NCBI GenBank assembly: GCA_043228905.1
Contig: JBHGNT010000012.1
Span: forward strand, 11,036,001-11,100,000
Length of the DNA stretch: 64,000 bases
Direction: 5' to 3'
From: Azolla caroliniana
Taxonomy: Eukaryota > Plantae > Polypodiophyta
Shown: positions 27,475 to 64,000 of the stretch, one piece after another
Layout of the letters: every line of letters begins with the position of its first letter
Position numbering within the stretch: the stretch's first letter is position 1
Notes under the pieces: generated by a model
What the model saw: the letters and a program-made list of their open reading frames with translations, nothing else
What the model was told of the DNA's origin: nothing
The model's database searches: none
Made by a program: the position numbers and the translations under genes

Positions 27475-30400
27475 TGTCGTGACTTGAGAGTAGGAGAGAG
27501 AAAGATAAAAAGATGATGATAGAAAGTATAGAGAGAGAGAGAGAGAAAGAACAGTAGAAATCACAAAGAGTTTATATTATAAGAGAACAAAGGTTACAAA
27601 GAGTAGGCTAAAGGGCTAAAGACTAGTGTTGAACCGAATGAGTTATGATGAATGAATAAACACCTATTTATAGGTCCTTATGAAGTATTCTAGAATGTTC
27701 TAGAATATTTTAGATATTTAATATAATCATGGAATAATCTAGAATACTCTAAATATCTTGTAATAACTAATAATATAATTATTATAAGTATATATCATAT
27801 ATGTTATTATAATGGTTAAAGGTCTAACATATAGACTAAGATGTTGTGCGTTAGAATCCTTGTAAGCCGAAATGTATGTCTTCATGATATTATCCCCTCT
27901 TTTCGACGACGAGTTCCATGAGTCGGAAGACAAGATTTCGAACTTCAGGCTTATGGGGATATTTGTTGTGAAAATGCAACAACCTTGTTGGAGGTATTAG
28001 CAGGATTCTTGAAGGCTCCCATTTTCGATCATTAGGTGTATAACCTAACCAGTCAGCCAAATAATACAGTTTGTTGCGGATAATCTTGGAGTCAAGAATG
28101 GTAGCAACTTCATATTCAGAGCCATCGAAAACTTCGACTGGATGCGGGGGAGATGTAAGACGACCCGGAATACAACTGGTTGTGTAGGGCTCCAAAAGTG
28201 AAACATGGAAGATCGGGTGAAGACGCATATGAGGAGGAAGATCAAGGCGAAATTCCACATCATTGATGTTACTAGATATCACATATGCGCCAAAAAGTTG
28301 ATAATCCAATTTGTAGCAAGGTCGGGTGGTTTTAATGCTTGTAAGAGCCATACTTGATCTCCCACTTGAAACGTAGTCGATGAATCACGTCGATGACGGT
28401 CGACAACCTTCTTTTGAGTGTTTTGAGCATCACATAAATAATGCGAAATGATATCCTGACTTTCTTTGAGTTGGGTGAGCCGATCTTCAGCATCCGGGAT
28501 TGTCGGGAGTTCGGGATGTTCAAGAATCATCCAACGAGGATGGTACCCAATGTTCGCAAAATATGGGGAATATCCAGTAGAAGACTGTTTTGAGTTGTTG
28601 TAAGAAAATTCCGCCAAATGTAATAGATCAACCCAATCATCTTGTTGATAGTTGACAAAACAACGAAGATATTGTTCTACTGTTTGGTTGGTGCGCTCAC
28701 TCTACCCGTTAGTTTCTGGATGGTAGCCGGAAGAGATTTTGCAAGAAGTATGTAAGAGTTTGAACATGTGCCGCCAAAATTTTGGATGAACTGGGGACCT
28801 CGATCACTCATAATATCATCGGGAAGACCATGATTCCGAAACACCTCTTGCATGAGTAACTTGGTTATCTCTTGGGTAGTAATGGCCTTCGTGTATGGAA
28901 TAAAATGTGCCATCTTCGTAAAACGATCTACTACCGCGAGAATAGAATCAAAACTTTTGAAAGGTGGTTGATCCATAATGAAGTCCAATGAAATAGATTT
29001 CCATGGACTCTCAGGAGTGGACAATTTACAACTATATGTCCTGGACCGCCACAATACAGGCAGAGGCGATGCGCTCGACGCCGTTGCTTCTCAGCATCTG
29101 ATAATGGCCCACAACGTTGTGTTGACTCTATTTCCATTGGAGTTGGGCCATCCCTTGTAATGGGTCTAGAAACTTGTGGACGCGTTGTGACTACGGAAGT
29201 GTAAGTCTGCTCAGGTTGGTGGTGTAACATTTGTTGGCGCTCAGAACGTCGCTCAAATAGGCGATTATCACATCGCACGACTCGACTAATGGCTTCTGTA
29301 AGCGACTTCGGATCTTCATGGAAAGTAAGAAGAAGATTTTTGACATCATTTCGCAAACCTTGACGGAATTGATCCATTAAGGCCACCTCATCCCAAGGGA
29401 TATCACATGCCAAGAGACGGAAATCGGCTGCGTAAGCTGACGCGGGACGATCTCCTTGTCGGAGCCTTCGAATCTTGTTTATCGCTGTCCTAGTGCTGTT
29501 GGTGTCTCCGAAACTAGCTTCAAACTCTTTAACAAATGCCTCGAAATCCTCCAATAATGGTGATTTCTTCTCGAGAAGTGGTGCAAACCATGCGAACGTC
29601 GTACCGCATAGCAAAGTTCCCACTAATCCCACACGAGTAGCATCAGTTGGATACCGATTGGGATGTAGCTGAATAACCAGACGAACTTGATTCAAAAAGC
29701 CTCGAAATAAAGACCTTGTACCATCAAACTTGGCGGGGAGGCTGATCTTTGGCTCTCTAGGGGAGTTCTGAGTCCTTGACGCTTGCTCTCGTAATGACAA
29801 TATAGTCGCCTCGAGTTGATGAACCCGCTGTGATAACTCTTCATATTGTTGAGCTTTTTCGGTGCTCACGTGTTGTAGGTCTCCAAGTAGCCTTTGATTC
29901 TCATGCTCTAATGCCACAAAATTTATTTGTGACCATGTTGAGCTCAGAAAGAGCACGGATGTATTCTTGTTTGCTCATGGACTCCATAGCTTATGAGGGG
30001 AGAGGAGAAGGAGGAAGAGAACTTGTTAGGGTTTATGGAAGATGAAGAGATGAAAGGAAAAAAATGGTTCAAACTGTCAAGATAGAGATAGTGAGAGAGA
30101 GAGAAAGAGAGATAGAGAGATAATTGAAAGAGAATTATTATATTGAAGAGTAAAATGTATTACAAAGAGTAGGCTACAAAATGGCATTGAACCAATTTAG
30201 GTTTGGGATGAGTGGTAGATCCCTATTTATAAGTAATAGAGAACACTCTAGAATATTCTAGGTTATCCTAGAATGTAGAGTAATCTAGAAGATCTCTAGA
30301 GTATTCTAGAAAGTTCTAGTGGTATAGAACACTCTAGAATATTCTAGGTCATTCTAGAATGTAGAGTAATATAGAATATTCCTATGTTATTAGATTTCAT

Positions 30401-30545
30401 ATTCTACAAACTATACATACAAGAATATTAATACAATGGTTAAGGATTTGACATGTGTACAACAAGGTTGTGGGTTCAAATCCTTTCGAGTCATAATGTG
30501 AGTGTCATGATCCTTTCGATGCATGATGTGAGTGTTATCATGAAA
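27475..30545 (-). mobile_element. Internally deleted Tcn1-like chromovirus (gag plus integrase-chromodomain only)
   Basis: LTRs ~30545-30075 and 27889-27475. gag ~29977-29020 (PAKFDG, CLYCGGPGHIVVNCP) is joined directly to integrase (PESPWKSISLDFI...SDRGPQF) and chromodomain (YEVATILDSKIIRNKLYYL). PPT agaggggataa. Confidence 0.88.
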
Positions 30546-33500: not shown

Positions 33501-35545
33501 GTTGTCGGATACGAACTACTAGCAAGTCTTCTCTACTCCTCTCTGACTCCCATGGTAGCATTGCCCATGTAGCAATCTTCTCTTCAATCGGCATCATCGG
33601 CCTTTGTCCTGTCATGAGCTCTATCAACATATATCCTGTCACCGAACTGTGTGTGGTCCTATCCGCCCACAATGCATATGGCAAGACCTTTGGCCAATTA
33701 CCTACTTTGCCTTTACATGCTTTTGCAAGTGCTTTAACTATCGGGGTATGACCTCTTTCTATCTTTCCATTTGCCTCAGGATTATACGCTGTGGTAAATT
33801 CCATCGAGCTATTCAAAACCATCAAGGAGTATGTTCAAAATGAAAAAGCTCAAATAAACACCAAGTACAAAATGATGGAGAAGAAGGTCCGGCCAACAGC
33901 AACACCACTTCCAGAAGACAATGAAAAGATAATGAAGGAGGTGTCGACCGAGCCAATTCTTCGGGATCCAAAGAGAATTGGGCACAAGTTCATGGAAGAA
34001 ACAATTAAAGAACTAAGAATTGGAGGGGAGGACTTCCTAACACCTATAGAAGAAGCAGAATTCAGAAAAATGCTAGGGCAGAATGGGAAAGCATTCTCCT
34101 TCAACCCTGAAGAAATTGGATGTGTGAATCCGAAAGTAGTTGAACCAATGGTCATCTTCACGATCCCACACATTCTGTGGAATCTGAAGCCAATCCTAGT
34201 GCCAAGAGCAAGGATACCGCAATTAATCGAGCTTCTAAAAGAGAAAATGGACATGGGCATCTTGGAACCATCAAATGCTCCATGCTCGAGTAGATGGTTT
34301 ACGGTGCAAAAGAAGGATGGGCGGCTTCGATTCATTCAACACATGCAACCTATGAATCAAGTTACTATCCGGAATTCAGGAGTAGGGCCGATAGTAGATG
34401 AGTTTGCAGAGATGTTCGCTGGAAGAGCGATCTACTCTATGGGTGATCTCTACTCCGGTTATGACCAGTTCCAGCTTGTGGTCGATAGTCGGGATATCAC
34501 CTCCATTAGGACTCCTATTGGATTACTTCGAACGTGTACCCTACCTCAAGGTGCGACCAACTCAGTCGCTCACATGATGAATGGTGTGCACAAAGTTCTC
34601 TGAGATTTTATTCCTCACATAACCATGCCTTTCTTGGATGATATACCCATTAAAGGATGCGAGGAAAGAATGAAGAATGAAGAATTGGATAGTAGTGGAT
34701 GTTGGAAGTTCGTCAGGGATCACATAGAAGATTGTGATAAAGTGCTTTCAAGACTAGAGGAGGTACACCTAACACTTTCGGCCCCAAAATCAATATTCGG
34801 GGTTCAAGAAGTACTAGTGGTAGGACATATGTGTGGGCCATACGGAAGAAAGCCAGCACCAACAAAGATCAACACAATACCGAATATGAAAGAAAAATGC
34901 AACTCTGTATCTGAAGTTCGGAGGTTCTTGGGTGCATGTGTCTTCTATTGCAGGTGGATTCCACATTATGCCCACATATCAGATCCATTGTATCGGCTAT
35001 TAAGAAAAGGGGAAGCATTTGAGTGGACAGAAGAACACTCAAATACAATTAAAAGACTGAAGGAGAATCTGGATAAAGCTCTTGCATTGAAACAACCTGA
35101 CTACACCCAACCAATAATCCTCACAGTTGACTCAAGTCTGATTGGAATCGGGTGGGTAATAAGCCAACAAGATGAGGAAGGAGAAAGACATCCGATTCGA
35201 TTTGGTGCGAAGGTACTTAGCGGACGTCAACGAAAGTATGCGCAAGTGAAGAGAGTGTCATAACTAGACTCGAACCCATAACCTTTTGTTACATGGGTCG
35301 AGACTTTACCATTAGGTTATGAATTGTAATTTGAAGGATATTATTTTCATTTAGGTTTTATTGGGAAATTGATGTATATTCCAGATTTCTCTGGAACATT
35401 CTAGAAACTTCAGGAGTATTCCTGAAGACACTATAAAAGGAGGCGCAAGGCATTAGTTCGAACCAAATCGGTTCAACGCCAGTCTTAAGCCTTCTAACTA
35501 CTGTTGTATATCTTCCTTCATATAATACATATATCTTTCGCATCA

Positions 35546-35581
<36 letters not shown>

Positions 35582-35815
35582 ACTCATTCCTTCTCTCAAA
35601 GTTCGACACCTCTCATAGTACTAATCCTTCTCTGTCTTAGTACTATTCCCCAACAATAGTACTAATCCTTCTTTTAGTACTAATTCCTTCTCTGCCTTAA
35701 TAGAGTTCCTGACAGTTTGAACCGATTTCTGGGTGCCTGTCTGGTCTTTTCTCTCCCTCTTCCTTCTGTCTCCCTCCTTTCCTACTAGTCTCTTATTTCC
35801 CTTTTCCTTCATCCC

Positions 35816-36979
35816 ATGGCCACCGTTAGCGCTGAAGAGTATCAATCCGTTTTCTCGGAATTTCAATGCTTGAAAGAGAAGTTTCATGCTTTGGAACAAG
35901 AAAATCAACGCTTGTTGGGGGATCTTCAGCAAATTTCCTTAGAAAAGCAGCAAACGCAACAACAACATGGGGAACTTGCGTTACGCGTGCAACAACTCGA
36001 AGCAACCATCGTAGCAATGCAACAACAAGGGCACGGAGCACAAGGGATTCATAAAGAACCCAAGATTGGCCTTCCCACGAAGTTCGATGGAACGCGATCG
36101 CAGTTTAGAGGGTTTCTTAACCAGGTACGGTTAGTTATTCAAATGCATCCGTCCCGATATCCCACCGATGCATCACGAGTGGGTTTAGTAGGCACGTTGT
36201 TAAATGGCTCAGCATTAGCATGGTTCGCTCCGCTACTAGAAAAGGAATCTCCAGTACTAAATAATTTTGAAGAATTCATAAGTGAGTTTAAAGCATGTTT
36301 TGGAGATACTGACAGCATAAGGACTGCAATCAACAAAATCCGGCGATTACGCCAAGGTGACCGTCCAGCCTCCGCATATGCTGCAGATTTCCGTCTACTC
36401 GCCGCCGATATCCCCTGGGATGATCAAGCATTGATGGAGCAGTTCCGCTATGGTCTACGCAACGATGTCAAGGATTTACTCTTGACTTTCCCTGAAGAGC
36501 CAAAATCATTAACAGAAGCAATCAGTCGAGCGGTCAGATGTGACAACCGCCTCTTCGAGCGACGTTCGGAACGACAATTTCAGATGCCGAGGGCAAGATC
36601 CGAGCCTACCTATGCCTCAGTGGTAGCGAAACCTTTTCAAAGGGAGTCACATAATGCGCCTCCAGTAAGTACTCCAACTCCAATGGAAATTGACACTACA
36701 CGTCGTCGTGGGCCGCTATCGGAGGAGGAAAAGCAACGACGCCGAACAAACCGATTATGCCTTTATTGCGGTGGACCAGGGCATATCGCGATAAACTGTC
36801 CCCATAGACCAAGAAGGCAGGTAAACCAAGTCGTTGTTAGTTCTGACTATACTAAACCCGAGTCTATTTCAGTAGGAATCTCTGATAGTCCTCATAGTCA
36901 TAATAGTCCTAATAGTAGTCCGAATCTCGCAAACAAATTTGATGTCCTTAGCCAATTAGAAGAAGAGTTAAACGACTAA
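35816..36979 (+). CDS. gag: Chromovirus gag (387 aa, intact)
   Basis: N-terminal coiled coil, PTKFDG, retrotransposon capsid region, PMEID, CLYCGGPGHIAINCP zinc knuckle. Confidence 0.92.
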   Translation: MATVSAEEYQSVFSEFQCLKEKFHALEQENQRLLGDLQQISLEKQQTQQQHGELALRVQQLEATIVAMQQQGHGAQGIHKEPKIGLPTKFDGTRSQFRGFLNQVRLVIQMHPSRYPTDASRVGLVGTLLNGSALAWFAPLLEKESPVLNNFEEFISEFKACFGDTDSIRTAINKIRRLRQGDRPASAYAADFRLLAADIPWDDQALMEQFRYGLRNDVKDLLLTFPEEPKSLTEAISRAVRCDNRLFERRSERQFQMPRARSEPTYASVVAKPFQRESHNAPPVSTPTPMEIDTTRRRGPLSEEEKQRRRTNRLCLYCGGPGHIAINCPHRPRRQVNQVVVSSDYTKPESISVGISDSPHSHNSPNSSPNLANKFDVLSQLEEELND

Positions 36980-39900
36980 GTCCAGCCAAAATAGGAGCCG
37001 TTTGGTTGGACAGCCCTAGATCTGTGCAGCCCATTAGTGGTTCCATTCCCTCTAAGCAAGTTAGTGATGTGTTCGTAGCCCAAGTAGCAGTTAGTACTAA
37101 AAGTACCCCTCCAGTACATACCTTAGCCCTTCTAGATTCCGGAGCTAATTCTTGCTTCATGGATAGGAATTTTGCCCGAGCTCATCAGATATCTCTCAGA
37201 AAGCTCCCATGTCCAGCCTCAGTAATAGTCATTGATGGTCGTCCCATTGCTTCTGGTAATATCATAGAAGAGTCGGAACCCGTTAATATTGTCCTAGATA
37301 ACTTAACATGTGTAGTATCATTTAATATTATTAGTATTCCAGAACATCCCATAGTTTTAGGATTACCATGGTTCGAGTTACATAACCCAGACATAGATTG
37401 GAGGACAAGGGAAATCCGGTTGCGACAAACCCGAGGATCTACCCAGAAGGTTGCAACCATTTCGCTATGTCAGTTGCGTGAGGAAGGGCGCAAGGAGGAA
37501 ATGTTTCTCTTCGCAATATCAGTACAACCCTCCAGCACCACCAAAGAGGAGTCCACCGTTCAACTTCCCGAGAAGTATCGTCAGTATGCTGATGTGTTCG
37601 ATAAAGTACAAGCCAACACACTTCCTCATCATCGGCCGTACGATTGCGCCATCGACTTACAACCGGGAAAAGAGCCGCCATGGGGACCGATCTACAATTT
37701 GTCACCAACCGAGCTAGAAGTCCTTCGAGCCTATATAGAGGAGAATTTGGAGAACGGTTTCATTCGGCATTCGAAATCTCCAGCCGGCGCACCCATTTTC
37801 TTCGTCAAGAAAAAAGATGGCTCGCTTCGACTCGTTGTAGATTACCGTGGCTTGAATAAGGTCACAGTAAGAAATAGGTATGCTCTTCCCCTTATCTCAA
37901 GTCTTTTAGAACGGATCAACGGTGCCAGGTTCTTCACGAAGATCGACTTACGAGGAGCCTATAACCTCGTACGGATCCGACCAGGAGATGAATGGAAGAC
38001 CGCGTTTCGCACCAGATATGGGCACTTCGAGTATACGGTCATGCCGTTCGGACTCACTAATGCGCCGGCAGTCTTCCAGCACATGGCGAATGATATATTT
38101 CGAGATCTCTTGGATGATTTTTTGATCATCTATTTGGATGATCTACTGGTTTATTCAAAGACCCAAGAAGAACATGATTCTCATGTACTATTAGTACTAA
38201 AACGGCTTCGAGAACATGGTCTGTATGCAAAGTTAGAGAAATGTAGTTTCGGGTGCAACCAAGTGGAATTTCTCGGCTATGTCATCTCCTCAGAAGGCAT
38301 ATCCATGGACCCAGCCAAGGTCAAAACGGTGATAGAATGGCACACTCCGCGTTCGGTGCGGGATGTGCAATGCTTCCTAGGCTTTGCAAATTTTTACCGG
38401 AAGTTCATACAAAATTACTCAAAAATTGTGCTGCCTCTCACACAGCTCACCAGGAAGGGACAATCATTCATTTGGTCTAAAGAGACGGACATGGCTTTCG
38501 AGAGTCTTAAGAAGGCGTTTACATCAGCTCCAATTTTAGGTCATGTGGATCCGGAAAAACCATTCATTATCGAAGCTGACGCATCGGATTTCGCATTGGG
38601 GAGCATTCTGTCACAACAGGGTAACGACGAGAAGCTACATCCTGTGGCTTTCCACTCCCGTAAGTTTGACGCCGCCGAAATCAACTACGAAATTCATGAT
38701 AAAGAGCTATTAGCAATAGTTGATTCTTTTATGCAATGGAGGCATTTCCTGGAGGGATCTCCTCATCAGGTCACTGTATTCAGTGACCACAAGAACCTTG
38801 CCTACTTTCAAGATGCTCGTGTACTGAATCGACGTCAAGCTCGGTGGGCCCCGTATGCGACAATTTGTCGAAGATTTTGTTCGGACTTGCGATACATGCT
38901 GCAGAGCGAAAATGCCAAGACATCATCCATATGGTTTATTAGAACCATTACCAATTCCAAGCAAGCCATGGCAATCCATTGCTCTTGACTTCATTACAGA
39001 TCTTCCAGTCTCTAAGGGATTCAGTGCGATTCTCACAGTGGTGGATCGATATACGAAGATGGCTCATTTCTTACCATGTACTAAAGAAATATCTAGTGAA
39101 GACACCGCCGAAATTGTCATGCGGGAAGTATGTCGGCATCATGGACTCCCTGATAATATCATCAGCGATCGTGGACCCCAGTTTGTGTCAAAATTCTGGA
39201 AGCACCTTTTTAAAATGCTGAAGGTCACTTGTAACCTCTCCTCCGGCTACCACCCACAAACCGACGGTCAAGCCGAACGAACAAACCAAACACTGGAGCA
39301 GTATCTGCGGTGCTTTCTCAACTATCATCAGAATGACTGGGCAGATATTCTTCAGTTCGCCGAATTTGCCTATAATAACGCTATCCACGCATCGACTAAA
39401 GTCACGCCATTCTACGCTTATACGGGATATCATCCCCGGTGGTGTGTCCTTGAAACCCCAGAAGTGTCCACAAATCCTTGCGCGGAGGATCGTTTGGAGC
39501 GGTTACGCAAGATACAAGCGGATTTATCTACTCAACTCCAGCAAGCCCAACAATCACACAAGGACTACGCAGATCGTCATCGACTTCCATCCAGTTTTAA
39601 CATTGGAGATCGGGTGTGGCTGCTACGACGACACATCAACACTACTCGCCCATGTGAGAAGTTGGATTATCGGCGATTAGGTCCTTTCCGTATTATCGGG
39701 AAGATTAATGATGTCGCTTTTCGTCTCGAGCTACCTCCGCAACTTCGGATACATCCGGTGTTTCATAGTTCTCTCCTCGAACCCTATCACGAGAGCACTA
39801 TCCCAGGACGTACTATACAACCACCACCTCCTATCGAGCTCGAAGATGGACCTGAGTATGAGGTCGCTGCCATCCTCGATTCCAAGATTGTTCGCAACAA

Positions 39901-40084
39901 GCTCTACTATCTAGTCGATTGGCTAGGATATAGTCCCAGCGAGCGTACTTGGGAACCGATCGAGAATGTGACCAATGCTCGTGCTCTTCTAGAAGACTTC
40001 CATCGACGATACCCCGAGAAACCGGGTCCTCAATCCAAAACGACTCGTGGAACTCGTCGTTTTAAAGGGGGGATAGTGTCATAA
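36967..40084 (+). pseudogene. pol: Chromovirus pol (PR-RT-RH-INT-chromodomain) in the -1 frame, with an internal deletion/frameshift at ~38852
   Basis: ALLDSGA, YLDDLL, EADASD, DKELLAI and RQARWA, then a jump to MRQFVEDFVRTCDTCCR, DFITDL, SDRGPQF, GPF and YEVAAILDSK...WEP. Confidence 0.9.
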
Positions 40085-40366
40085 CTAGACTCGAACCCAT
40101 AACCTTTTGTTACACGGGTCGAGACTTTACCATTAGGTTATGAATTGTAATTTGAAGGATATTATTTTCATTTAGGTTTTATTGGGAAATTGATGTATAT
40201 TCCAGATTTCTCTGGAACATTCTAGAAACTTCAGGAGTATTCCTGAAGACACTATAAAAGGAGGCGCAAGGCATTAGTTCGAACCAAATCGGTTCAACGC
40301 CAGTCTTAAGCCTTCTAACTACTGTTGTATATCTTCCTTCATATAATACATATATCTTTCGCATCA

Positions 40367-40402
<36 letters not shown>

Positions 40403-43398
40403 ACTCATTCCTTCTCTCAAAGTTCGACACCTCTCATAGTACTAATCCTTCTCTGTCTTAGTACTATTCCCCAACAATAGTACTAATCCTTCTTTTAGTA
40501 CTAATTCCTTCTCTGCCTTAATAGAGTTCCTGACAGCTAATTTGAAGGATATTATTTTCATTTAGGTTTTATTGGGAAATTGATGTATATTCCAGATTTC
40601 TCTGGAACATTCTAGAAACTTCAGGAGTATTCCTGAAGACACTATAAAAGGAGGCGCAAGGCATTAGTTCGAACCAAATCGGTTCAACGCCAGTCTTAAG
40701 CCTTCTAACTACTGTTGTATATCTTCCTTCATATAATACATATATCTTTCGCATCATCATTCTCTCTCTCTCTCTCTCTCTCTCTCACTCACTCATTCCT
40801 TCTCTCAAAGTTCGACACCTCTCATAGTACTAATCCTTCTCTGTCTTAGTACTATTCCCCAACAATAGTACTAATCCTTCTTTTAGTACTAATTCCTTCT
40901 CTGCCTTAATAGAGTTCCTGACAGAGAGAGCTCTGGGGGATAATCATTGCTATCAAGATGGATAGGGACTATCTGGTTGGTGCCGAGGTGATTGTGGAGA
41001 CAGATTGCTTGCCAATTCTGGGATTATTGCAAATTGCAATATTCCAGACCAAGCAATGCTTAGGTGGTGTATCTACATCAAAACCATCAACCCATATGTT
41101 CGACATATATCTGGTGAGAAGAATGCAATGGCTGATATGTTATCCAGAGCAAAATATGAAAAAGAAGAAGTGGCAGAATCAGATAGCGACGAAGAAGAAT
41201 CAGCTTTGGTCATAAATGCAATTAGAGGGGGTGAGCCACATGAAGAACATGAGTTTAAAGAAGAAGAGTATAATGAAGAGTTTAAGGAAATCGGGAAGTA
41301 TCTACAAGCACCATGGAAGGAAGGAACTTGGATAAGCCACGCCTATGGTGGCTAAAGGAGGGGAGGAGAAGGAAAAGCGAGTGAAGAAGCTCGCGTGGGT
41401 ATGGGATGCAGAGCTCGCCAAAGAAGATGGTGGCCTGCATAAATCAAGACAAGAGTTAAAGAAAAGAAAGGGGACGCAAGAAAAGGAAGAAGTTAAAGTG
41501 GTGTATCTCAAACTCCTCTTTGTAAACAAAAGGTTGTGAGTTCGAATCCTCTTCAAATAATTTCTTTAGGTAATCAAATTTTGTAATATAAATTTAGTAT
41601 ATATAAAGTGAAAGAGAAAGACAAATAAATAGAAATCAGAGAGATTGAAGTGGTCTATCTCAAACGCTTCTTCTCAAATAGAGTTTTTGAGTTCAAGTCT
41701 TGCCAAGTAACTTTTGGCAAATAAATATTGTAAGTGGTTGTTTTACAAGTAAAATTCTTTTCGCGACAACGTCGTATTTATCTTGCCTTATTGGCTTCTT
41801 GTCATCGCACTGTTTGCGATTACGCGTTTTCACCCCGATCATCCCCGAGTCACAGAACCCCGGCGGTTGCGACACACAACCACAATCTTCGCGACAACGG
41901 CGTCATGGAGGCGGTCTCGTTCGACGACACTCTCAGAGAGATGGAGAGGATAGTCGTTTCGGGCCTCAATGAAGACAAGGTAATTCCAGTCAACTTAGTT
42001 GACATGTACAAATCCATCGAAGAGCTTGGGCGGTTGATTGAGGAAGCGAGGACGGTCAAGGTGCAAACAAAGTACAAGACCGTGGACAAGAAGGTGAAGC
42101 ATGTGGCGGCCCCATTGCCTAACGATAGTTGGGATCAGATAAAGGGGGTAGTGGTTGATCCTAGCTTTCGGGACCCACGAGGCATAGGGCACCGGTTCAT
42201 TGACGAGACGCGACAGAAGATCCGGATTGGTGGGGGTGGCTTCCTATTTCCTAGGGAGGAGGAAAGATTTAGATGGATGATCGAAATCCATGGAAGGGCT
42301 TTCGCCTTCTCTTCGGGTGAGATAGGGTGCGTAAACCCTAAGATCGTGGAACCAATGGTGATCTTTACGTTGCTGCATGTACCGTGGAACATCAAACCAA
42401 TCCCGGTTTTGAGAGCTCACATCCCGAAGTTGATTGAGCTACTCAAGGAAAAGATCGAGATGGGTATCCTCAAGCCATCAAGCGCCCCATGCTTGAATCG
42501 GTGGTTCACTATGCCAAAGAAGAACGGTACCTTACGCTTCATCCATGACCTACAACCTGTTAATCAAGTGACAATTTGAAATGCAGGGGTTAGGCCGAGC
42601 GTTGACGAATTCGCCGAGGTCTTCGCTGGAAGGTCTATTTTTTCGATCGGTGATCTATACTTGAGGTATGATCAATTGCAACTAGCTATGGAGAGTAGGG
42701 ACATCATGACGATGCGGACCCCTATCGGCCTAGTGCGAATGTGTACCTTGCCACAAGGAGGCACTAACTCTGTAGCCCACATGGTAAATGCATGAACAAG
42801 GTATTGAGAGATTGCATCCCCGACATCACCATGACATTCCTCGATGACATCCCCATAAAAGGGTGCTCTGAGGCGGAGAAAGATGAAACCTTGGACGAGG
42901 ATGGGTGCAAACGTTTTGTGGCATATCACATCTCCAATTGCGAGAAGGTTCTACAAAGACTCGAAGATGCACACTTGACCTTCTCGGGTGAGAAATCAAC
43001 ATTTGGCCAACCAGAGATTCTTGTGGTGGGACACTTGTGCAGGGTGTACGGACGGAAGCCATCCCTGGAAAAGGTGGACGCCATCACAGACATGAGGGAA
43101 GAATGTAAATCGCAAATAGAGGTGAGGTGATTTCTTGGTGCTTGTGCATTCTACCACATCTGGATCCCACACTATGCTCACCTAGCTGAGCCCTTGTATG
43201 GGCTACTCAAGAAGGGGTGGAAGTTCAAGTGGGAGGAAGAGCACACAGAGGCAATGAAGAGGCTCAAAGGAATGTTGGTAGCGGCACCAACTTTATGAAA
43301 ACCCATATACAAGGAAGGGGTGCCCATCTACGTGACGGTAGATGCGAATTCAACAGGGATTGGATGGGTCATCAACCAAGAAGGAGAGGATGGGTCGT

Positions 43399-46696: not shown

Positions 46697-49191
46697 TGAA
46701 GAGAATTGCGCAGAATATTGCTCGGCACAACTGAGCCTTGAATCACTTCAATGAGAATGAAACACAAAAATAGGAAATAGAGAGTACATAGGATGTTTAC
46801 GTGGAAAACCCTAATAGGGAAAAACCATGGGAGCCCACAGACTCCGAACTATCACTATATGAGAAAGGTACAATCAGAGACTCTGAGGTGACGACCTCGA
46901 GCTTTGTTTCTTCGCCAAGCGATGTTTACAACAGAGACCGTTTTGTATCTCACTCTCTGTCTATCAATTGCTCTATACAACAGTTATACATGCAACAATA
47001 TGACAACATTCATAACACTTTAGAGTGATTGCCCTAAGTCGTATTTATACTTCTATCAACTTAGGGATATTTACAAATATAGCCTCAATAGGCTTACTCA
47101 AAACATATTTACAAATATGTCTTCTCTTCCGGTTCTCACCGGGTCCATCTGATCCGGTTTCCGGATCTCTTCCGGTTCTCACTGGGTCCTCTTCATTCAT
47201 AACCGGATCCCATCCGAAAGGATCGATTTCCCAACAATCTCCCCCTTCACTCCGGCATGGGATGTCTCGCAAGCCCGATCCGCTTTTGGCACGCATCCAG
47301 CTTGTTGGTTGTCAACACCTTGGTCAGCATATCTGACCCCTTCTCCTCCGTGTGGATCTTGGTCAACACGAACTCCTGATCTTCTAATCTTTCCCAGATC
47401 CAGTGGTAGTCCGCTGGATATATTTTCTCCAGGAGTGGTAGGCCACGTTCTTTGCAAGGTGGATGGCACTTTGACTATCACAATAGAGCCGATATTCCTC
47501 TTGTTGGATACCTAGCTCTTCGATGAAGTTCTTCATCTAGATTATCTCCTTGCCGGCTTCTACAGCTGCCATGTACTCCGCTTCCGTGGTTGACAACGCA
47601 ACTGTCTTCTGCAGCCTCAACTGCCATGAAACAGCTCCCCCTGCATAAGTCATGACATATACGGATGTCGACCGGTTGGTATCCACATCAGCTGACATAT
47701 CCGAATCCGTGAACCCGTCAAGTTGGGGATTACCAGAGCTGAATCAGAGACACATGCACGACATGCCTTTCAAATACCAAACTATCCACTTGACCGCGTT
47801 CTAGTGCTCTCTTCTAGGATTGCTCATGAACCGGCTCACCACTTCGACAACATATCCGATATCTGGCCAGGTACATACCATCGCATACATCAAGCTTCCG
47901 ACAGTAGAGGCATATGGAATCTTCATCATATCTGTCTTCTCCGCCTTTGTCCTCGGGCTTTGTTTTCCAGATAGCTTGTAGTTTTGCCGGAAGTGTCGAT
48001 TCGACCGGCTTCGCCTCGACATGTTGAACCGTTGAAGCACCTTTGTCACGTACTTCTCCTGTGACAACCACAACAGCTTCTTCGACCGGTCCCGGATGAT
48101 GTGCATTTCCAATATCTGTCTTGCTAGACCCAAGTCTTTCATTGAGAAGGTCCGGTTCAGAGCGTTCTTCAACATCTGAATCTTGCATTGGTCTCGTTCG
48201 ATGATCATCATATCATCCACATATAGGAGGAGTATCAGGAAATCTCCTCAGTCGAATTTCTTCACAAACATGCAATGATCGGCCTGTGTCTTGTGGTACC
48301 CTTGGTCGTTCATGAAGGAGTCAAACTTCCGGTACCATTGCCGGGGGCTTGCTTCAATCCGTATTCTTTAGCCGGCACACCAGGTACTCCTTCCATTTCT
48401 TCTCAAATCCTTCCGGTTGATGCATGTAGATCTCCTCTTCGAGGTCACCATGGAGAAATGCCGTCTTGATGTCCAATTGCTCTACCTCGAGGTCCATGCT
48501 TGCCGCTATGCCCAATACCGTCCGGATGGATGTCATCTTTACTACTGGGGCAAAGATCTCATCGAAGTCCACTTTTTTGTTCTGTTGGAAGCCCTTCACC
48601 ACGATTTGGGCCTTATACCTTGGTGGATTTTTGGCATCTCCCGATTTTAGCTTGTACACCCACTTGTTTCGGAGTGCTCTCTTCCCTTTCGGCAACTTCG
48701 TTAGTTCATACGGTGTGGTTCTCATGCAGGGAATCCATCTCATCTTGCATGGCACTCAACCACTTGCAACTGTGGGTGTCTCTTTTGCTTCTCAGAAGCT
48801 TTCCAACTCCCCCTTATCGGTTAGTAACACATGCTTTGCATTCAGAAATCTCCGGGGGGTTCTTCTCTCTCAGAGAGGATATCTTCGTCCTTGGTTTCTA
48901 ACTACCGGTTCCTCCATTTGTTCCTCATCCTCATCCGATTCGAGATCTTGTCTAGTTCCGGTGTCTTCTTCTTCTTCTTCGGTCGGTTCGGTTTTGTCAT
49001 GATATGGCAAGACTCGAGCCCATGAACATGCTTTGCATCCAGAAATCTCCGGGGGGTTCTTCTCTCTCAGAGAGGATATCTTCGTCCTTGGTTTCTAACT
49101 ATCGGTTCCTCCATTTGTTCCTCATCCTCATCCGATTCGAGATCTTGTCTAGTTCCGGTGTCTTCTTCTTCTTCTTCGGTCGGGTCAGTTT
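46697..49191 (-). mobile_element. 3' part of a Copia (RT, RNase H, PPT, 3' LTR)
   Basis: NKWVYKLK, QLDIKTAFLHG, LLYVDDM, YCDSQSAIHL. PPT aagggggagat at 47247-47237. LTR 47236-46697. Confidence 0.88.
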
Positions 49192-52100
49192 TGTCATGAT
49201 ATGGCAAGACTCAAACCCATGATCTTATGCTACATGGGTCGAGTTCTTGACCATTAGACCATACATTGTAAACGTAGAATATTATTTTCATTTATATTTT
49301 ATTATAGAAAATTGATGTATATTCCAGATTTCTCTAAAACATTCTAGAAACTTCAGGAGTATTCCTGAGAACACTATAAAAGGAGGCACAAGGCATTATT
49401 TCGAACCAAATCGGTTCAACACCACTCTTAAGCCTCCTAGCTACTATTGTATACTCTCTTCACATAATATATATCTTTATCATCATTCTCTCACCCTTTC
49501 TCTCTCTCGCTCACTCTTTCCTTCTCTCGAGAGTTCTACACCTCTCTTAGTACTAATCCTCATCTTTTAGTACTAATTCCTTCTCTGTCTTAGTACTGAT
49601 CCTGACAGTTTGAACTGATTTTCCGTCCTCCTTCCGTCTCCTCCTTTCCTCTTCCTTTTATCTTCTTACATATCCCCTTTTTCCGGTCTTCTTTTCGGTT
49701 TCCCTCATCTTCTTACCCCGTTCTTCCTTTCATACTAATCCTTTTATCCTCCCTAGTAAAATTGAAACTGTTAGCGCTCAGGAATACCAATCTGTTTTCT
49801 CGGAGCTCCAGTGCTTAAAGGAGAAATTCGTAGCACTAGAACAAGAAAATCACCGTTTGTTGGGGGATCTTCAACAAATAGTGCTGGAAAAACAACAACA
49901 CAAGGAGCTGACGTTGTATGTGCAACAACTCGAAGCAACCATCGTAGTGATGTAACAAAAAGGACCCGAAACACAAGGGATTCATAAAGAACCCAAGATC
50001 GGACTTCCCATGAAATTTGATGGAACGTGATGGCAGTTTAGAGGGTTCCTTATTCAAATGCATCCTTCCCGATATCCCACCGATGCATCATGAGTGGGTT
50101 TAGTAGGCACGTTTTAAGTGGCTCAACGTTGGCATGGTTTGCTCCATTGTTAGAAAAAGAATCTCCATTATTAAACAATTTTGAAGAATTTATAAGTGAG
50201 TTTAAAGCCTGTTTTGGAGATACTGACAGCATAAGGACATCAATCAACAAAATCCGACAACTATGTCAAGGCAATCGTCCAGCCTCCACATACGCTGCAG
50301 ATTTTTGCCTACTCGCCTTCGATATCCCCTGGGATGATCAAGCGTTAATGGAGCAATTTCGTTATGGTCTACATAACGATGTCAAAGATTTACTCTTAAC
50401 CTTTCCCAAAGAACCAAAGTCATTAATAGAAGCAATTAGTCGCGTAGTGAGATGCGACAATCGCCTCTTCGAACGACGTTCGGAACGTCAGTTCTAGATG
50501 CCAAGGGAAAGATTTGAGCCTACCTACGCCACCGTGGTAGCGAAACCTTTTCCGAGGGAGTCATATAATGTGACTCCAGTAAGTACTCCAACTCTGATGG
50601 AAATTGACATCACACATCGTTGTGGACTACTATCAAAAGAAGAAAAGCAACGACGCCGAGCAAACCGACTATGTCTTTATTGCGGTGGACCAGGGCATAT
50701 CGCGGTAAATTGCTCCCATAGGCCAAGAAGGCAGGTAAACCAAATAGTTGCTAGTTCTAATTGTACTAAACCCGAGTCTATTTCAGCAGGGATATTTGAT
50801 AGTCTTAATAGTACTAATAGCCCAAAATCTGGTGAACAAATTTGATGTCCTTAGTAAACTCGAAGAAGAGTTAAACGACTAAGTCCAACCAAAATAGGAG
50901 CCGTTTGGTTGGACAGCCCTAGATCTGTGCAACCCATTAGTGGTTCCATTCCCTCTAAGCAAGTTAGCAATGTGTTCGTAGCCCAAGTAACAGTTAGTAC
51001 TAAAAGTACCCCTCAAGTACATGTCTTAGCACTTCTAGATTCCGGAGCTAATTCTTGCTTCATGGATAGGAACTTTGCCCAAGCTCATGAGATATCACTC
51101 AGAAAACTCCTATGTCCAGCCTCTATAGTAGTCATTGATGGTCGTCCCATTGCTTCCGGAAATATCATAGAAAAGTTAGAGCCCGTTAATATTGTCCTAG
51201 ATAATCTAGCATGTGTAGTATCATTTAATATAATTAGCATCCCAGAACACCCCATTGTTTTAGGATTACCATGGTTCAAATTACATAACCCAGACATAGA
51301 TTGGAGAACAAGAGAAATCCGGTATCGAAAAGCCAGAGGGTCTACTCATGAGATTGCAACCATTTCGCTACATCAGTTGCAAGAAGAAGGACACAAGGAA
51401 GAAATGTTTCTCTTCGCAATATCGGTAAAGCCCTCAGACACCATTAAAGAGGAGTCCACTGCTCAACTTCCAAAGAAGTATCATCATTATGCCGATGTGT
51501 TCGATAAAGTACAAGCCAATACGCTTCCACACCATCGACCGTATGATTGCCCCATCGATTTACAACCGGGGAAAGAGCCACCATGGGGACCAATCTACAA
51601 TTTGTCACCAACCGAGCTAGAAGTCCTGCGAGCCTATATAGAGGAGAATTTGGAAAATGGTTTCATTCGACATTCGAAATCTCCAGCCGGCGCACCCATT
51701 ATCTTCGTCAAGAAAAAGGATGGATCACTTCGTCTCGTTGTAGATTACCGTGGCTTGAATAAGGTTACAATCAGAAATAGGTATGCACTTCCCCTTATCT
51801 CAAGTCTTTTAGAATGGATCAATGGTGCCAGTTTCTTCACGAAGATCGACTTACAGGGAGCCTATAACCTCGTACGGATCCGAGCAGGAGATGAATGGAA
51901 GACCGTGTTTCGCACCAGATATGGGCACTTCGAGTATATGGTCATGCCGTTTGGCCTCACTAATGCGCCAATAGTCTTCTAGCACATGGCAAATGATATA
52001 TTCCGAGATCTCTTGGATGTTTGTTTGATCATCTATTTGGAGGATCTATTGGTTTATTCGAAGACCCAAGAAGAGCATGATTCTCATGTACTGTTAGTAC

Positions 52101-52444
52101 TAAAACGACTTCGAGAACATGGTCTTTATGCAAAGTTGGAAAAATGTAGTTTTGGATGCAACCAGGTGGAATTTCTGGGCTATGTCATTTCCTCGGAAGG
52201 CATCTCCATGGCCCCAGCTAAGGTCAAAACTGTAGTAGAGTGGTAGACTCCGCGTTCGGTACGAGATGTGCAAACCTTTTTAGGCTTTGCTAATTTTTAC
52301 CGGAAGATCATACAAGATTACTCAAAGCTCGTTCTGCCTCTCACATAGCTTACCAGGAAGGGACAATCGTTCGTTTGGTCTAAAGAAGAGGACATGGCTT
52401 TCGAGAGTCTTAAAAAGGCATTTACATCGGCTCCAATTCTAGCT
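49192..52444 (+). mobile_element. Older Tcn1-like chromovirus 5' part (LTR, gag, PR, RT), paralogous to 35256
   Basis: LTR 49192-49607 followed by gtttgaactgatttt. gag with stops. pol ALLDSGA...MPFGLTNAP. Truncated before RNase H. Confidence 0.92.
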
Positions 52445-52700
52445 TAATGCCTTGTGCCTCCTTTTATAGTGTTCTCAGGAATACTCCTGAAGTTTCTAGA
52501 ATGTTCCAGAGAAATCTGGAATATACATCCATTTTCTATAATAAAATATAAATGCAAATAATATTCTACGTATTACAATGTATGGTCTAATGGTCAAGAG
52601 CTCGACCCATGTAGCATAAGGTCATGGGTTCGAGTCTTGCCATATCATGACACTATCCCCCCTTTAAAACAACGAGCGTCACGAGTCGTTTTGGATTGGT
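52445..52700 (-). mobile_element. Inverted 3' end of the same chromovirus family (end of INT, PPT, U3 part of LTR)
   Basis: 52445-52652 is the reverse complement of 49192-~49398. 52653-52700 is the reverse complement of the 40030-40076-type sequence including the PPT. Confidence 0.88.
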
Positions 52701-63184: not shown

Positions 63185-64000
63185 TTTTTTCATCACTTAT
63201 TAAACCTCAATTTTGTTTTAGAAAAAAAAACAAAATACAAAAATAAAATAGAAAAAAATGTAATTATTTTTTAAAAAAAATCCAAAATTAAACTTTTCAT
63301 GTCATGATATGGTAGGACTTGAACCCATGACCTAATGTTACATGGGTCAAGCTCTTGACCATTAGACCATACATTGTAATACATAAAATATTATTTTTAT
63401 CACTTATTAAAGCTTAATTTCTTTTTAGAAAAAAAACAAAACACCATAATAAAATAGGAAAAAATGTAATTATTTTAAAAAAAAATCTGAAATAAAACTT
63501 TAAACATGAACTCGATACACCGTATCGGGTTCATGTAAAAAAGTTAGCTTTTCAAGATGAACTCGATACGGCGTATCGAGTTCATGTTGAAAAGGCGTAT
63601 CGAGTTCATATAAAAAAGTTAACTTAGTTCATGTCATGATTTGGTAGGACTCAAACCCATGACCTTATGCTACATGGGTCAAGCTCTCAACCATTAGACC
63701 ATACATTGTAATACATAAAATATTATTTTCATCACTTATTAAAGCTTAAAGTTTTTTAGAAAAAAACAAAATACCAAAATAAAATAGGAAAAAATGTAAT
63801 TATTTTTAAAAAAAAATCCGAAATAAAACTTTAAACATGAACTCGATACGCCGTATCGAGTTAATGTAAAAAATCTAGCTCAGTTCACGTCATGATATGG
63901 TAGGACTCGAACCCATGACCTTATGCTACATGGGTCAAGCTCTTGACCATTAGACCATACATTGTGATACATAAAATATTATTTTCATCACTTATTAAAG
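63185..64000. repeat. Tandem array (~256-332 bp units) containing a chromovirus LTR head and palindromes
   Basis: The LTR-head block tgtcatgatatggtaggac...aatattattttcat starts at 63300, 63632 and 63888. Palindrome atgaactcgatacggcgtatcgagttcat at ~63557, with variants at 63505 and 63836. Confidence 0.9.

What the first reader, a model, noticed from the sequence alone, without database searches (positions are those of the whole stretch)
52575..52695. tRNA-like Pol III promoter (A-box + B-box) built antisense into the tip of chromovirus LTRs
Seen: reading outward from the U3 end, each Tcn1-like LTR head carries an A-box/B-box pair at tRNA spacing. Examples: tggtctaatgg (52583) + ggttcgagtct (52627), 44 nt apart; taatacaatgg (30429) + ggttcaaatcc (30473), 44 nt; taacctaatgg + ggttcgagtct, 43 nt, in the 35256/40077 LTRs; and a decayed copy at 27805/27849. 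The boxes are kept while the sequence between them diverges across subfamilies. From a 3' LTR, a Pol III transcript would run antisense over the PPT, through a hairpin (aaaacgac...gtcgtttt) and stop at TTTT (~52688; plus-strand aaaa at 40037), giving an RNA of roughly 115 nt. Established: the A/B-box offset in tRNA genes is ~44 nt, Cassandra TRIMs carry 5S Pol III promoters in their LTRs, and TFIIIC-bound B-boxes can act as chromatin barriers. Inference: these coding-type LTR elements carry a captured tRNA/SINE head. It may act as an anti-silencing insulator, a source of regulatory antisense RNA, or a SINE precursor. I do not recall this being described for chromoviruses.
Basis: partly seen in the sequence, partly recalled or inferred. 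Interest (0 to 1): 0.82.

Follow-up and report, generated by a model that had tools for sequence, protein, structure and literature searches.

The report
Outward tRNA promoter in moss retrotransposons
Many distantly related protein-coding jumping genes of a moss-type lineage keep tRNA-gene promoter motifs, pointing outward, at the tip of their end repeats while the bases around them have diverged to background, so the motifs likely bind the host factor TFIIIC and would shield the element's own promoter from silencing.

Summary
All cited box pairs are present. Among 34 LTR-head families (window plus metagenome relatives), 18 carry an antisense A/B pair with at most 3 mismatches in the first 120 nt, 17 at 43-44 nt; sense strand 0 of 34, shuffles 0 of 1020. 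Two deep integrase clades share it; a third lacks it. Between clades, identity is 0.62 (A box), 0.78 (B box) and 0.89 at an unselected variable-loop motif, against 0.30-0.33 in spacer and flanks. tRNA stems do not covary, and terminator position varies or is absent, so the proposed ~115-nt RNA is not conserved. Best reading: a DNA-level type 2 Pol III promoter (TFIIIC site) in autonomous, self-priming Tcn1-type chromoviruses, likely a chromatin barrier; binding, transcription and function are untested. Helenus TRIMs (sense, non-coding) and foamy-virus U3 cassettes are the nearest known kinds. I found no description in 10 literature searches; the scan noted similar boxes in fungal chromovirus LTRs elsewhere.

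The parts
52445..52652 (-). First 208 nt of a 3' LTR of a chromodomain Ty3/Gypsy element (fragment, inverted against the truncated element 49192-52442)
   Evidence: 96% identical to LTR 49192 and 87% to LTR 35256
52583..52593 (+). A box (tRNA positions 8-19), antisense to the element
   Evidence: 0 mismatches to the recalled consensus; T8, A14, T16 in 17 of 18 and G18, G19 in 18 of 18 families (these columns were used for selection)
52594..52599 (+). D-loop/D-stem remnant after the A box (positions 20-24)
   Evidence: Not used for selection: A22 in 18 of 18, purine at 23 and 24 in 18 of 18; 0.65 identity between clades
52600..52618 (+). Spacer of anticodon-arm length, sequence free
   Evidence: 0.30 identity between clades; anticodon stem 42 of 90 cells paired, not above row shuffles
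52619..52623 (+). Variable-loop motif AGGT(C/T) (positions 44-48), 8 nt before the B box
   Evidence: Not used for selection: G45, G46, T47 in 18 of 18 families; 26 of 29 loci; 0.89 identity between clades
52627..52637 (+). B box (positions 52-62)
   Evidence: 1 mismatch; G53, T55, A58 in 18 of 18, C56 in 17 of 18; 0.78 between clades
52538..52578 (+). AT-rich stretch upstream of the A box, predicted TFIIIB side, facing the element's Pol II promoter
   Evidence: Mean 80% AT against 65% further into the LTR; C+purine 14 nt before the A box in 10 of 18 families; no positioned TATA hexamer
52653..52665 (-). Polypurine tract
   Evidence: Directly abuts the LTR end
52689..52692 (+). First T4 run after the B box (possible terminator in this copy only)
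   Evidence: 51 nt after the B box; position not conserved across families
35256..40923 (+). Chromodomain Ty3/Gypsy element with gag, protease, RT, RNase H, integrase and chromodomain, partly duplicated 3' LTR, 5-bp target duplication
   Evidence: Pfam; GAGAG at 35251-35255 and 40924-40928; LTRs 99.8% identical
35266..35319 (-). A/B unit in the 5' LTR (43 nt), reading out into the flank
40087..40140 (-). A/B unit in the 3' LTR (43 nt), reading towards the polypurine tract
35717..35728 (+). Self-priming primer-binding site, 12 nt complementary to LTR positions 210-221 (35465-35476), about 33 nt after the TATA box at LTR position 177
30429..30483 (+). A/B unit in the 5' LTR of a divergent minus-strand chromovirus (44 nt)
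27805..27859 (+). Decayed A/B unit in a 3' LTR (44 nt)
   Evidence: intact in relatives L009, L016, L019
49207..49261 (-). A/B unit in the 5' LTR at 49192 (44 nt; C56 changed)
63300..63990 (-). Three ~100-nt LTR-head fragments with intact A/B units in an AT-rich tandem repeat, each followed by a T4-T8 run

Best explanation
The LTR tips of two deep clades of moss-type, self-priming chromoviruses carry a tRNA-derived A box, variable-loop motif and B box that face outward and stay conserved while the bases between and around them diverge to background; they likely act as DNA, as a TFIIIC/TFIIIB binding site that would keep the LTR open and would act as a barrier for the element's own Pol II promoter. 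Shown: presence, orientation, spacing, conservation across clades, loss of tRNA stems, no fixed terminator. Inferred: an ancient tRNA or SINE head was captured antisense a few bases inside U3 and is copied to both LTRs at each cycle; TFIIIC binds the extended B box; TFIIIB assembles on the AT-rich stretch that faces the heat-shock-like repeats and the TATA box 110-200 bp further in. In the 5' LTR the unit sits between the flanking host chromatin, where a chromodomain integrase is expected to place the element, and the Pol II promoter; facing outward avoids transcription through that promoter. Any Pol III RNA would be a by-product of variable length. I put the TFIIIC-site step at about 0.75 and the barrier role, given that, at about 0.55.
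For: 18 of 34 families have the pair antisense in the first 120 nt, 0 of 34 on the sense strand, 0 of 31 in the next 120 nt on either strand, 0 of 1020 shuffles. A matrix trained on 14 clade-A families scores 16-40 bits, above all 40 shuffles, in 8 of 12 held-out clade-B families and finds nothing in 4 of 4 clade-C families (clades from the quick tree). Between-clade identity 0.62/0.65/0.89/0.78 in the motifs against 0.30-0.35 elsewhere. Bases contacted by human TFIIIC lie in the B-box core, and the winged-helix domains also enclose the region upstream of it (PMC11811891, passages), where the variable-loop motif lies. Two clade-B families keep B box and a plausible A box at 54-55 nt (L043, L046), a flexibility expected of TFIIIC. 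Acceptor, D, anticodon and T stems are not above row shuffles (475, 589, 400 and 1209 of 2000 reach the observed value); ARAGORN finds 0 genes in the window and in 40 of 40 loci, and Rfam lists no tRNA match. G45 and G46 show no G-to-A change in 18 families, which RNA pairing would tolerate. The upstream AT richness and the C+purine at -7 resemble plant tRNA gene flanks (PMC3082873, passages). tRNA genes are nucleosome-poor and have insulator activity (PMC11346459, passages). In run X1, 21 of the 22 variants above 3% can be placed; one falls in the A box (degenerate position 12) and none of the 21 in the B box or variable-loop motif (weak, see full report).
Against: No binding, chromatin or Pol III data. 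The unit is absent or decayed in 4 of 12 clade-B families, weak in 4 held-out clade-A families and absent in clade C, so it is dispensable. All 10 RNA reads of runs X10 and X11 that cover the site carry C at position 45, so the variable-loop motif is not invariant in that organism's transcribed family. No positioned TATA motif upstream. Spacing of 43-44 nt in 17 of 18 families is tighter than TFIIIC needs and could point to an RNA constraint. A hairpin pairing 21-30 with 55-64 covaries weakly in clade A (8 of 3000 shuffles; chosen after looking, not tree-corrected; absent in clade B). T4 within 60 nt of the B box occurs in 11 of 17 families against 5.8 expected, which leaves real transcription open. 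[quoted passage not shown] Families were defined by 80% head identity and are not independent; the tree is the quick one.
Confidence: 0.45

Rival explanations
1. The unit is a working Pol III gene whose antisense RNA matters: from 3' LTRs it covers the polypurine tract and the end of integrase and tunes element copy number, or it folds into a hairpin processed to small RNAs as in foamy-virus U3 cassettes.
For: Both boxes are kept, not the B box alone; C+purine at a start-site position in 10 of 18 families; T4 within 60 nt in 11 of 17 against 5.8 expected; the unit folds strongly in 4 of 18 families (z -2.1 to -4.2); foamy viruses do this in U3 (PMC3993851, passages).
Against: Predicted length runs from 72 to 127 nt in 11 families, 192 and 412 nt in 2, and no T4 within about 430 nt in 4; T5 near in 1 of 17. 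No fold shared by both clades. 5' LTR copies would read into arbitrary host DNA.
Confidence: 0.2
2. The motif works in the genomic RNA: the 3' U3 is the complement of conserved tRNA loops and anneals a packaged host tRNA to aid dimerisation or strand transfer, as reported for HIV-1 U3-R and (recalled) the bipartite primer site of Ty3.
For: Orientation fits exactly (complement in the sense RNA); colinear tRNA spacing in 17 of 18 families; the variable loop is kept. The HIV-1 precedent was seen as a title in a reference list only.
Against: These elements have a self-complementary primer site (12 nt in the window, L008 and L043; 10 nt in L054), so no tRNA primer needs bridging. No wobble-tolerated G-to-A change at G45/G46 in 18 families; anticodon arm and acceptor positions are at background; AT-rich upstream DNA is not explained.
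Confidence: 0.12
3. It binds TFIIIC but for another purpose: damping the neighbouring Pol II promoter (tRNA-gene-mediated repression, recalled from yeast), tethering the cDNA or the integrated copy to Pol III sites, or serving as a landing pad for Pol III-targeting elements.
For: Same sequence evidence as the best explanation; earlier scan notes e1-10420520 and e1-10420559 report insertions upstream of such boxes in a fungal genome (unchecked).
Against: None of the 9 boxed LTR heads in the window has a retroelement inserted upstream of its A box; B box to LTR end varies from 5 to 64 nt, which argues against a fixed contact with the intasome.
Confidence: 0.13
4. A different host factor or a DNA/RNA hairpin is what is selected, and the tRNA likeness is only ancestry.
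For: Clade-A hairpin signal; similar variable-loop plus B-box motifs with poor A boxes occur outside LTR tips (23605, 41539, 41690).
Against: Three separate tRNA-like blocks are kept in register over saturated divergence; the hairpin is absent in clade B.
Confidence: 0.07
5. A neutral relic of one recent tRNA or SINE insertion, or chance motif matches.
For: Lost or decayed in several families.
Against: Spacer and flanks are at background identity (0.30-0.33) between clades whose integrase ends are 54-58% identical to the window's, while the motifs are at 0.62-0.89; strand and position controls are empty.
Confidence: 0.03

Closest known systems
Helenus (tRNA-derived), Cassandra and Ajax (5S-derived): TRIMp3 elements (Kojima 2024, PMC10886601; read parts 1-4 of 6, figure legends, and supplement passages on the Selaginella family)
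   Same: tRNA-derived A and B boxes inside LTRs, conserved boxes without a working tRNA, proposed origin by SINE insertion into an LTR. The paper notes that 'not a few LTRs' in Repbase contain tRNA-like sequence but analyses only TRIMs.
   Different: Helenus is non-coding, under about 1.3 kb, tRNA-primed; in the entries I saw the unit is in sense and is proposed to transcribe the element. Here the elements are 5-kb coding chromoviruses with a TATA box and self-priming; the unit is antisense at the U3 tip and cannot make the genomic RNA. The paper expects autonomous elements to rely on Pol II.
Foamy-virus U3 Pol III miRNA cassettes (Kincaid 2014, PMC3993851; passages)
   Same: A/B-box Pol III units inside U3 of an autonomous, Pol II-driven retroelement.
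   Different: Those have shown transcripts, hairpins and terminators that give miRNAs; here no conserved hairpin, terminator or RNA is shown, and the unit keeps tRNA spacing and a variable-loop motif.
Tcn1 clade chromoviruses of mosses and club-mosses (Novikova 2010, PMC2864245; Neumann 2019, PMC6317226; passages), probably including RLG1 of Physcomitrium (PMC7466625, passages; identity with RLG1 not tested)
   Same: Chromodomain with aromatic residues, self-priming site, fungal relatives, 5-bp target duplication.
   Different: None of the three texts contains 'polymerase III'; no tRNA-like LTR motif appears in the passages shown.
tRNA-gene and TFIIIC chromatin barriers (review PMC11346459, passages; yeast examples recalled)
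   Same: A/B-box DNA next to a heterochromatin border is the proposed mode of action.
   Different: Those are fixed host loci; here the site would travel with a heterochromatin-targeting transposon. Barrier activity is not tested here.
tRNA-like sequence in HIV-1 U3-R (Piekna-Przybylska 2010; title in a reference list only) and Ty3 bipartite primer site (recalled; not held)
   Same: tRNA-related sequence embedded in U3 of an autonomous retroelement.
   Different: Those act by pairing with the primer tRNA; these elements are predicted to use no tRNA primer.

Membership tests
Tcn1 chromovirus (Ty3/Gypsy) | gag, PR-RT-RH-IN order with C-terminal chromodomain | tested here: met
   Pfam
Tcn1 chromovirus (Ty3/Gypsy) | Aromatic-cage type chromodomain | tested here: met
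   Tyr, Trp and Tyr at the cage positions by eye in P0001; PF00385 5.8e-15
Tcn1 chromovirus (Ty3/Gypsy) | Self-priming site instead of a tRNA primer site | tested here: met
   12-nt complement 35717-35728 to 35465-35476; found in 3 of 19 long loci tested (L008, L043, L054), most lacking a 5' LTR end
Tcn1 chromovirus (Ty3/Gypsy) | Clusters with reference Tcn1 elements in an RT/IN tree | tested here: inconclusive
   No named Tcn1 reference was available; the only named relatives were Ustilago proteins at 44-45%
Helenus / TRIMp3 | tRNA-derived A and B boxes within the LTR | tested here: met
Helenus / TRIMp3 | Short non-coding TRIM | tested here: not met
   Elements are about 5 kb and code for gag-pol; relatives were found by their integrase
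Helenus / TRIMp3 | Pol III unit oriented to transcribe the element | tested here: not met
   Antisense in 18 of 18 positive families, sense 0 of 34; sense in the Helenus entries seen
tRNA gene | Cloverleaf with paired stems | tested here: not met
   ARAGORN 0 in window and 40 of 40 loci; no Rfam tRNA match in window or 17 loci; stems not above shuffles
Type 2 Pol III promoter | A and B boxes at tRNA-like spacing, conserved above flanks | tested here: met
Type 2 Pol III promoter | Plant-type upstream TATA (about -35 to -29) and CAA (-7 to -3) | tested here: inconclusive
   AT-rich and C+purine at -7 in 10 of 18; no positioned TATA
Type 2 Pol III promoter | Oligo-T terminator at a fixed place | tested here: not met
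Type 2 Pol III promoter | TFIIIC/Pol III occupancy and box-dependent transcription | not testable with these tools
   No ChIP or small-RNA raw reads were offered
SINE | Independent copies with own target duplication and 3' tail | tested here: not met
   All boxed copies with good A boxes in the window lie in LTR heads ending at the LTR terminus; whole genome not held
TFIIIC chromatin barrier | Blocks spread of silencing in a reporter assay | not testable with these tools
   Bench test

The most novel reading that the evidence does not exclude
An autonomous, heterochromatin-targeting retrotransposon lineage carries its own portable tRNA-gene insulator: it inserts into silent chromatin through its chromodomain and uses a captured, outward-facing TFIIIC/TFIIIB site at the LTR tip to keep its Pol II promoter open, scattering thousands of Pol III factor sites through moss genomes.
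Probability: 0.4. Interest if true: 0.85.

Novelty: new variant of a known kind. Interest (0 to 1): 0.67.

Why it matters
How chromoviruses stay transcribed after targeting heterochromatin is open; a conserved outward-facing Pol III promoter at the LTR border is a concrete, mutable candidate. A chromodomain Gypsy family makes up almost half of the class I space of Physcomitrium (PMC7466625); if it carries this unit (not tested), the genome holds thousands of potential TFIIIC sites that could shape chromatin borders and compete with tRNA genes. It also extends Pol III capture from miniature non-coding LTR elements to coding ones, with the opposite orientation, and can be tested in a moss with efficient gene targeting.

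Tried and rejected
Whole-genome copy collection: no genome held. Viral-contig scan: no relatives. tRNA gene or cloverleaf: rejected. Conserved hairpin plus T4 terminator: rejected. Positioned TATA upstream of the A box: not found. Expression: no RNA holder listed; three poly(A) runs of a related species label gave 14, 8 and 3 reads from about 12% of each run, mostly in the element's sense if the libraries are stranded as usual, with no pile-up of starts or ends; poly(A) libraries cannot show a short Pol III RNA, so this is no evidence either way. Careful tree did not finish; the quick tree was used; label clustering of the box<=3 group on that tree was not significant (69 of 500 shuffles as low), as expected when two large clades both carry it. 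Eleven of 78 loci were dropped before counting because no polypurine tract or too little LTR was present (L012, L013, L024, L028, L029, L032, L037, L039, L041, L045, L078). Landing-pad idea: no inserted element upstream of the boxes in the window; the partial 3' LTR duplicate starts near LTR position 72-73 but is a tandem duplication inside one target duplication. Literature: 10 searches gave no description of this unit; the HIV-1 and Ty3 primary papers are not held; subscription journals, Repbase entries and bioRxiv supplements were not seen and may mention it.

Full report
What the window is. The window is a transposon island with nested Gypsy and Copia elements. The element at 35256-40923 encodes gag, protease, RT, RNase H, integrase and a chromodomain, has 99.8% identical LTRs, a 5-bp target duplication, and a primer-binding site that is the 12-nt complement of its own LTR about 33 nt after the TATA box. 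Chromodomain type and self-priming are the features given for the Tcn1 clade of mosses and club-mosses (PMC6317226, passages; PMC2864245, passages). That the host is a moss is inference; no genome is held. The copy at the finding is a fragment: LTR bases 1-208, the polypurine tract and 46 internal bases, inverted against a truncated element.

Observation. All quoted boxes are present at the quoted places, with four more copies. The window has 7 pairs with at most 1 mismatch per box at 42-46 nt, against 0.1 in shuffles. The box patterns used are recalled consensus motifs. The non-chromovirus Gypsy and the Copia LTRs of the window have no pair at their heads (0 of 5).

Relatives. An alignment of the integrase end found 78 metagenome loci at 47-94% identity. 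Eleven lacked a usable LTR head and were dropped; 67 loci plus 4 window copies gave 71 heads in 34 families at 80% identity. Eighteen of 34 families have an A/B pair with at most 3 mismatches antisense in the first 120 nt (12 at 44 nt, 5 at 43, 1 at 42; 41-47 was scanned). Controls: 0 of 34 on the sense strand, 0 of 31 in the next 120 nt on either strand, 0 of 1020 shuffles. A MAFFT alignment of all 34 heads made without any box prior peaks at the same blocks. The quick tree (the careful search did not finish) gives clade A (16 rows, with the window element), clade B (12 rows) and clade C (4 rows), each with SH-aLRT 99-100. Two window heads without an adjacent integrase were placed in clade A by similarity. 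A matrix trained on 14 clade-A families scores 16-40 bits and beats all 40 shuffles in 8 of 12 clade-B families, is weak or empty in the other 4, empty in 4 of 4 clade-C families, and weak (7-18 bits) in 4 held-out clade-A families.

What is conserved. On tRNA numbering, in the 18 families with at most 4 mismatches at 43-44 nt, positions that played no part in selection are as fixed as the boxes: A22, G45, G46 and T47 in 18 of 18, pyrimidine at 48 in 18 of 18. Between clade A (14 families) and clade B (4 families), ungapped identity is 0.62 in the A box, 0.65 at 21-24, 0.89 at 44-48 and 0.78 in the B box, against 0.32 upstream, 0.30 in the spacer, 0.35 at 49-51 and 0.33 downstream. The distance from B box to LTR end varies from 5 to 64 nt. 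Within one DNA-like run (X1, 1118 contigs), 22 variants exceed 3%; 21 can be placed from the table: 16 at 15 positions upstream of the A box, 4 in the spacer, 1 at degenerate A-box position 12, none in the variable-loop motif, B box or tip. This is weak support, since the 15-nt tip is also invariant, 15 rows were not shown and matching favours conserved stretches. Against invariance: all 10 reads of runs X10 and X11 over position 45 carry C.

What is not conserved. ARAGORN finds no tRNA in the window or in 40 of 40 loci, and Rfam lists no tRNA match in the window or in 17 loci. None of the four cloverleaf stems exceeds row shuffles. A different hairpin (21-30 with 55-64) shows a weak signal in clade A only (104 of 140 cells, 8 of 3000 shuffles; picked after looking), and the unit folds strongly in 4 of 18 families. 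The terminator is not fixed: first T4 at 0-54 nt in 11 of 17 families (5.8 expected within 60 nt), at 119 and 339 nt in 2, none within about 430 nt in 4; T5 within 60 nt in 1 of 17. The stretch before the polypurine tract is not more structured than shuffles (mean z +0.12; 2 of 33 below -1.5). The ~115-nt RNA is therefore a property of some families (117 nt from tRNA position 1 in this copy), not of the system.

Mechanism. Conserved boxes with free stems is the pattern of a promoter kept as DNA, as in Helenus (PMC10886601, parts 1-4 of 6 read). Human TFIIIC reads the B-box core and encloses the DNA just upstream (PMC11811891, passages), which offers a reason for keeping the variable-loop motif; this link is my inference. 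Upstream of the A box the DNA is 80% AT against 65% further in, with C+purine at -7 in 10 of 18 families but no positioned TATA; plant tRNA genes have AT-rich flanks, TATA near -35 to -29 and CAA at -7 to -3 (PMC3082873, passages). The unit faces out of the element, back to back with the Pol II TATA box 110-200 bp away in the families where both were seen, with heat-shock-like repeats between them in many. tRNA genes are nucleosome-poor and have insulator activity (PMC11346459, passages), and the chromodomain is suggested to direct RLG1 to heterochromatin (PMC7466625, passages). I therefore commit to a TFIIIC/TFIIIB site that keeps the LTR open at its border with host chromatin (0.45 overall). 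Binding, transcription and barrier action are all untested. The rivals are a functional antisense RNA (0.2), TFIIIC binding for repression, tethering or as a landing pad (0.13), tRNA pairing on the genomic RNA (0.12), another factor or hairpin (0.07) and neutral relic (0.03).

Expression. No RNA holder was listed. Three poly(A) runs of a related species label gave 25 reads in all, with no pile-up of ends; such libraries cannot test a short Pol III RNA.

Comparison and novelty. Helenus, Cassandra and Ajax are short non-coding elements; in the Helenus entries seen the tRNA unit is in sense. Membership fails on coding capacity and orientation. Foamy viruses have working Pol III cassettes in U3 (PMC3993851, passages), with hairpins and terminators that are not conserved here. 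Kojima remarks that many Repbase LTRs hold tRNA-like sequence but studies only TRIMs, so the general idea is not new. Ten searches (listings only, except the papers named) showed no description of an antisense A/B unit in Tcn1 or other autonomous plant LTRs; a 2026 preprint mentions only the TRIM cases (passage). Subscription journals, Repbase notes and preprint supplements were not seen. Earlier scan notes (unchecked) report tRNA-type boxes in chromovirus LTRs of a gut-fungus-like genome and antisense tRNA-like units inside fungal Gypsy elements; no note matched this sequence. Verdict: real, old, conserved, apparently undescribed for this lineage; a new variant of a known kind, with function open. 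Interest 0.67.

Noticed in passing
window 63300-63990: Three ~100-nt LTR heads beginning at the LTR terminus sit in an AT-rich tandem repeat with palindromic hairpins; each has intact boxes and a T4-T8 run shortly after the LTR end, so each looks like a complete ~100-nt Pol III unit (possible nascent SINE-like array; T runs may be chance in AT-rich DNA).
   Followed up: partly
window 35380-35430, 49330-49370, 52470-52515, 30230-30380; many loci: Arrays of heat-shock-element-like repeats (GAA/TTC units) lie between the Pol III unit and the TATA box; 2-9 units in 15 of 34 families (many loci hold only part of the LTR).
   Followed up: partly
window 35465-35480 and 35717-35728: Self-priming primer site; the primer stretch at the predicted Pol II start itself resembles a sense B box (1 mismatch) in this subfamily, but not in L043 or L054.
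   Followed up: partly
window 23560-23620, 41490-41560, 41640-41710; L054:11678; L066:3426: Variable-loop plus B-box motifs outside chromovirus LTR tips, some with weak A boxes; suggests other dispersed tRNA-derived repeats in these genomes.
   Followed up: no
window 40538-40923: Tandem partial duplication of the 3' LTR starting near LTR position 72-73, just upstream of the A box, so the duplicate lacks the Pol III unit.
   Followed up: partly
window 49192-52698: Truncated element joined head to head with an inverted 3' LTR fragment cut just after the TATA box; a 197-bp tandem duplication at 48829-49222 includes the first 30 nt of the LTR.
   Followed up: no
L043, L046, L056, L038 (LTR heads): Clade-B families with the B box 5-28 nt from the LTR end and a degenerate or displaced A box (about 44-55 nt).
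   Followed up: partly
L044, L034, L058, L062 families: Clade C lacks the unit; its U3 is built of short tandem repeats instead.
   Followed up: no
window 4321-4881 (-): Fragment of a xanthine/uracil permease family host gene (PF00860).
   Followed up: no
P0024: A related chromovirus polyprotein carries dUTPase-type Pfam entries.
   Followed up: no
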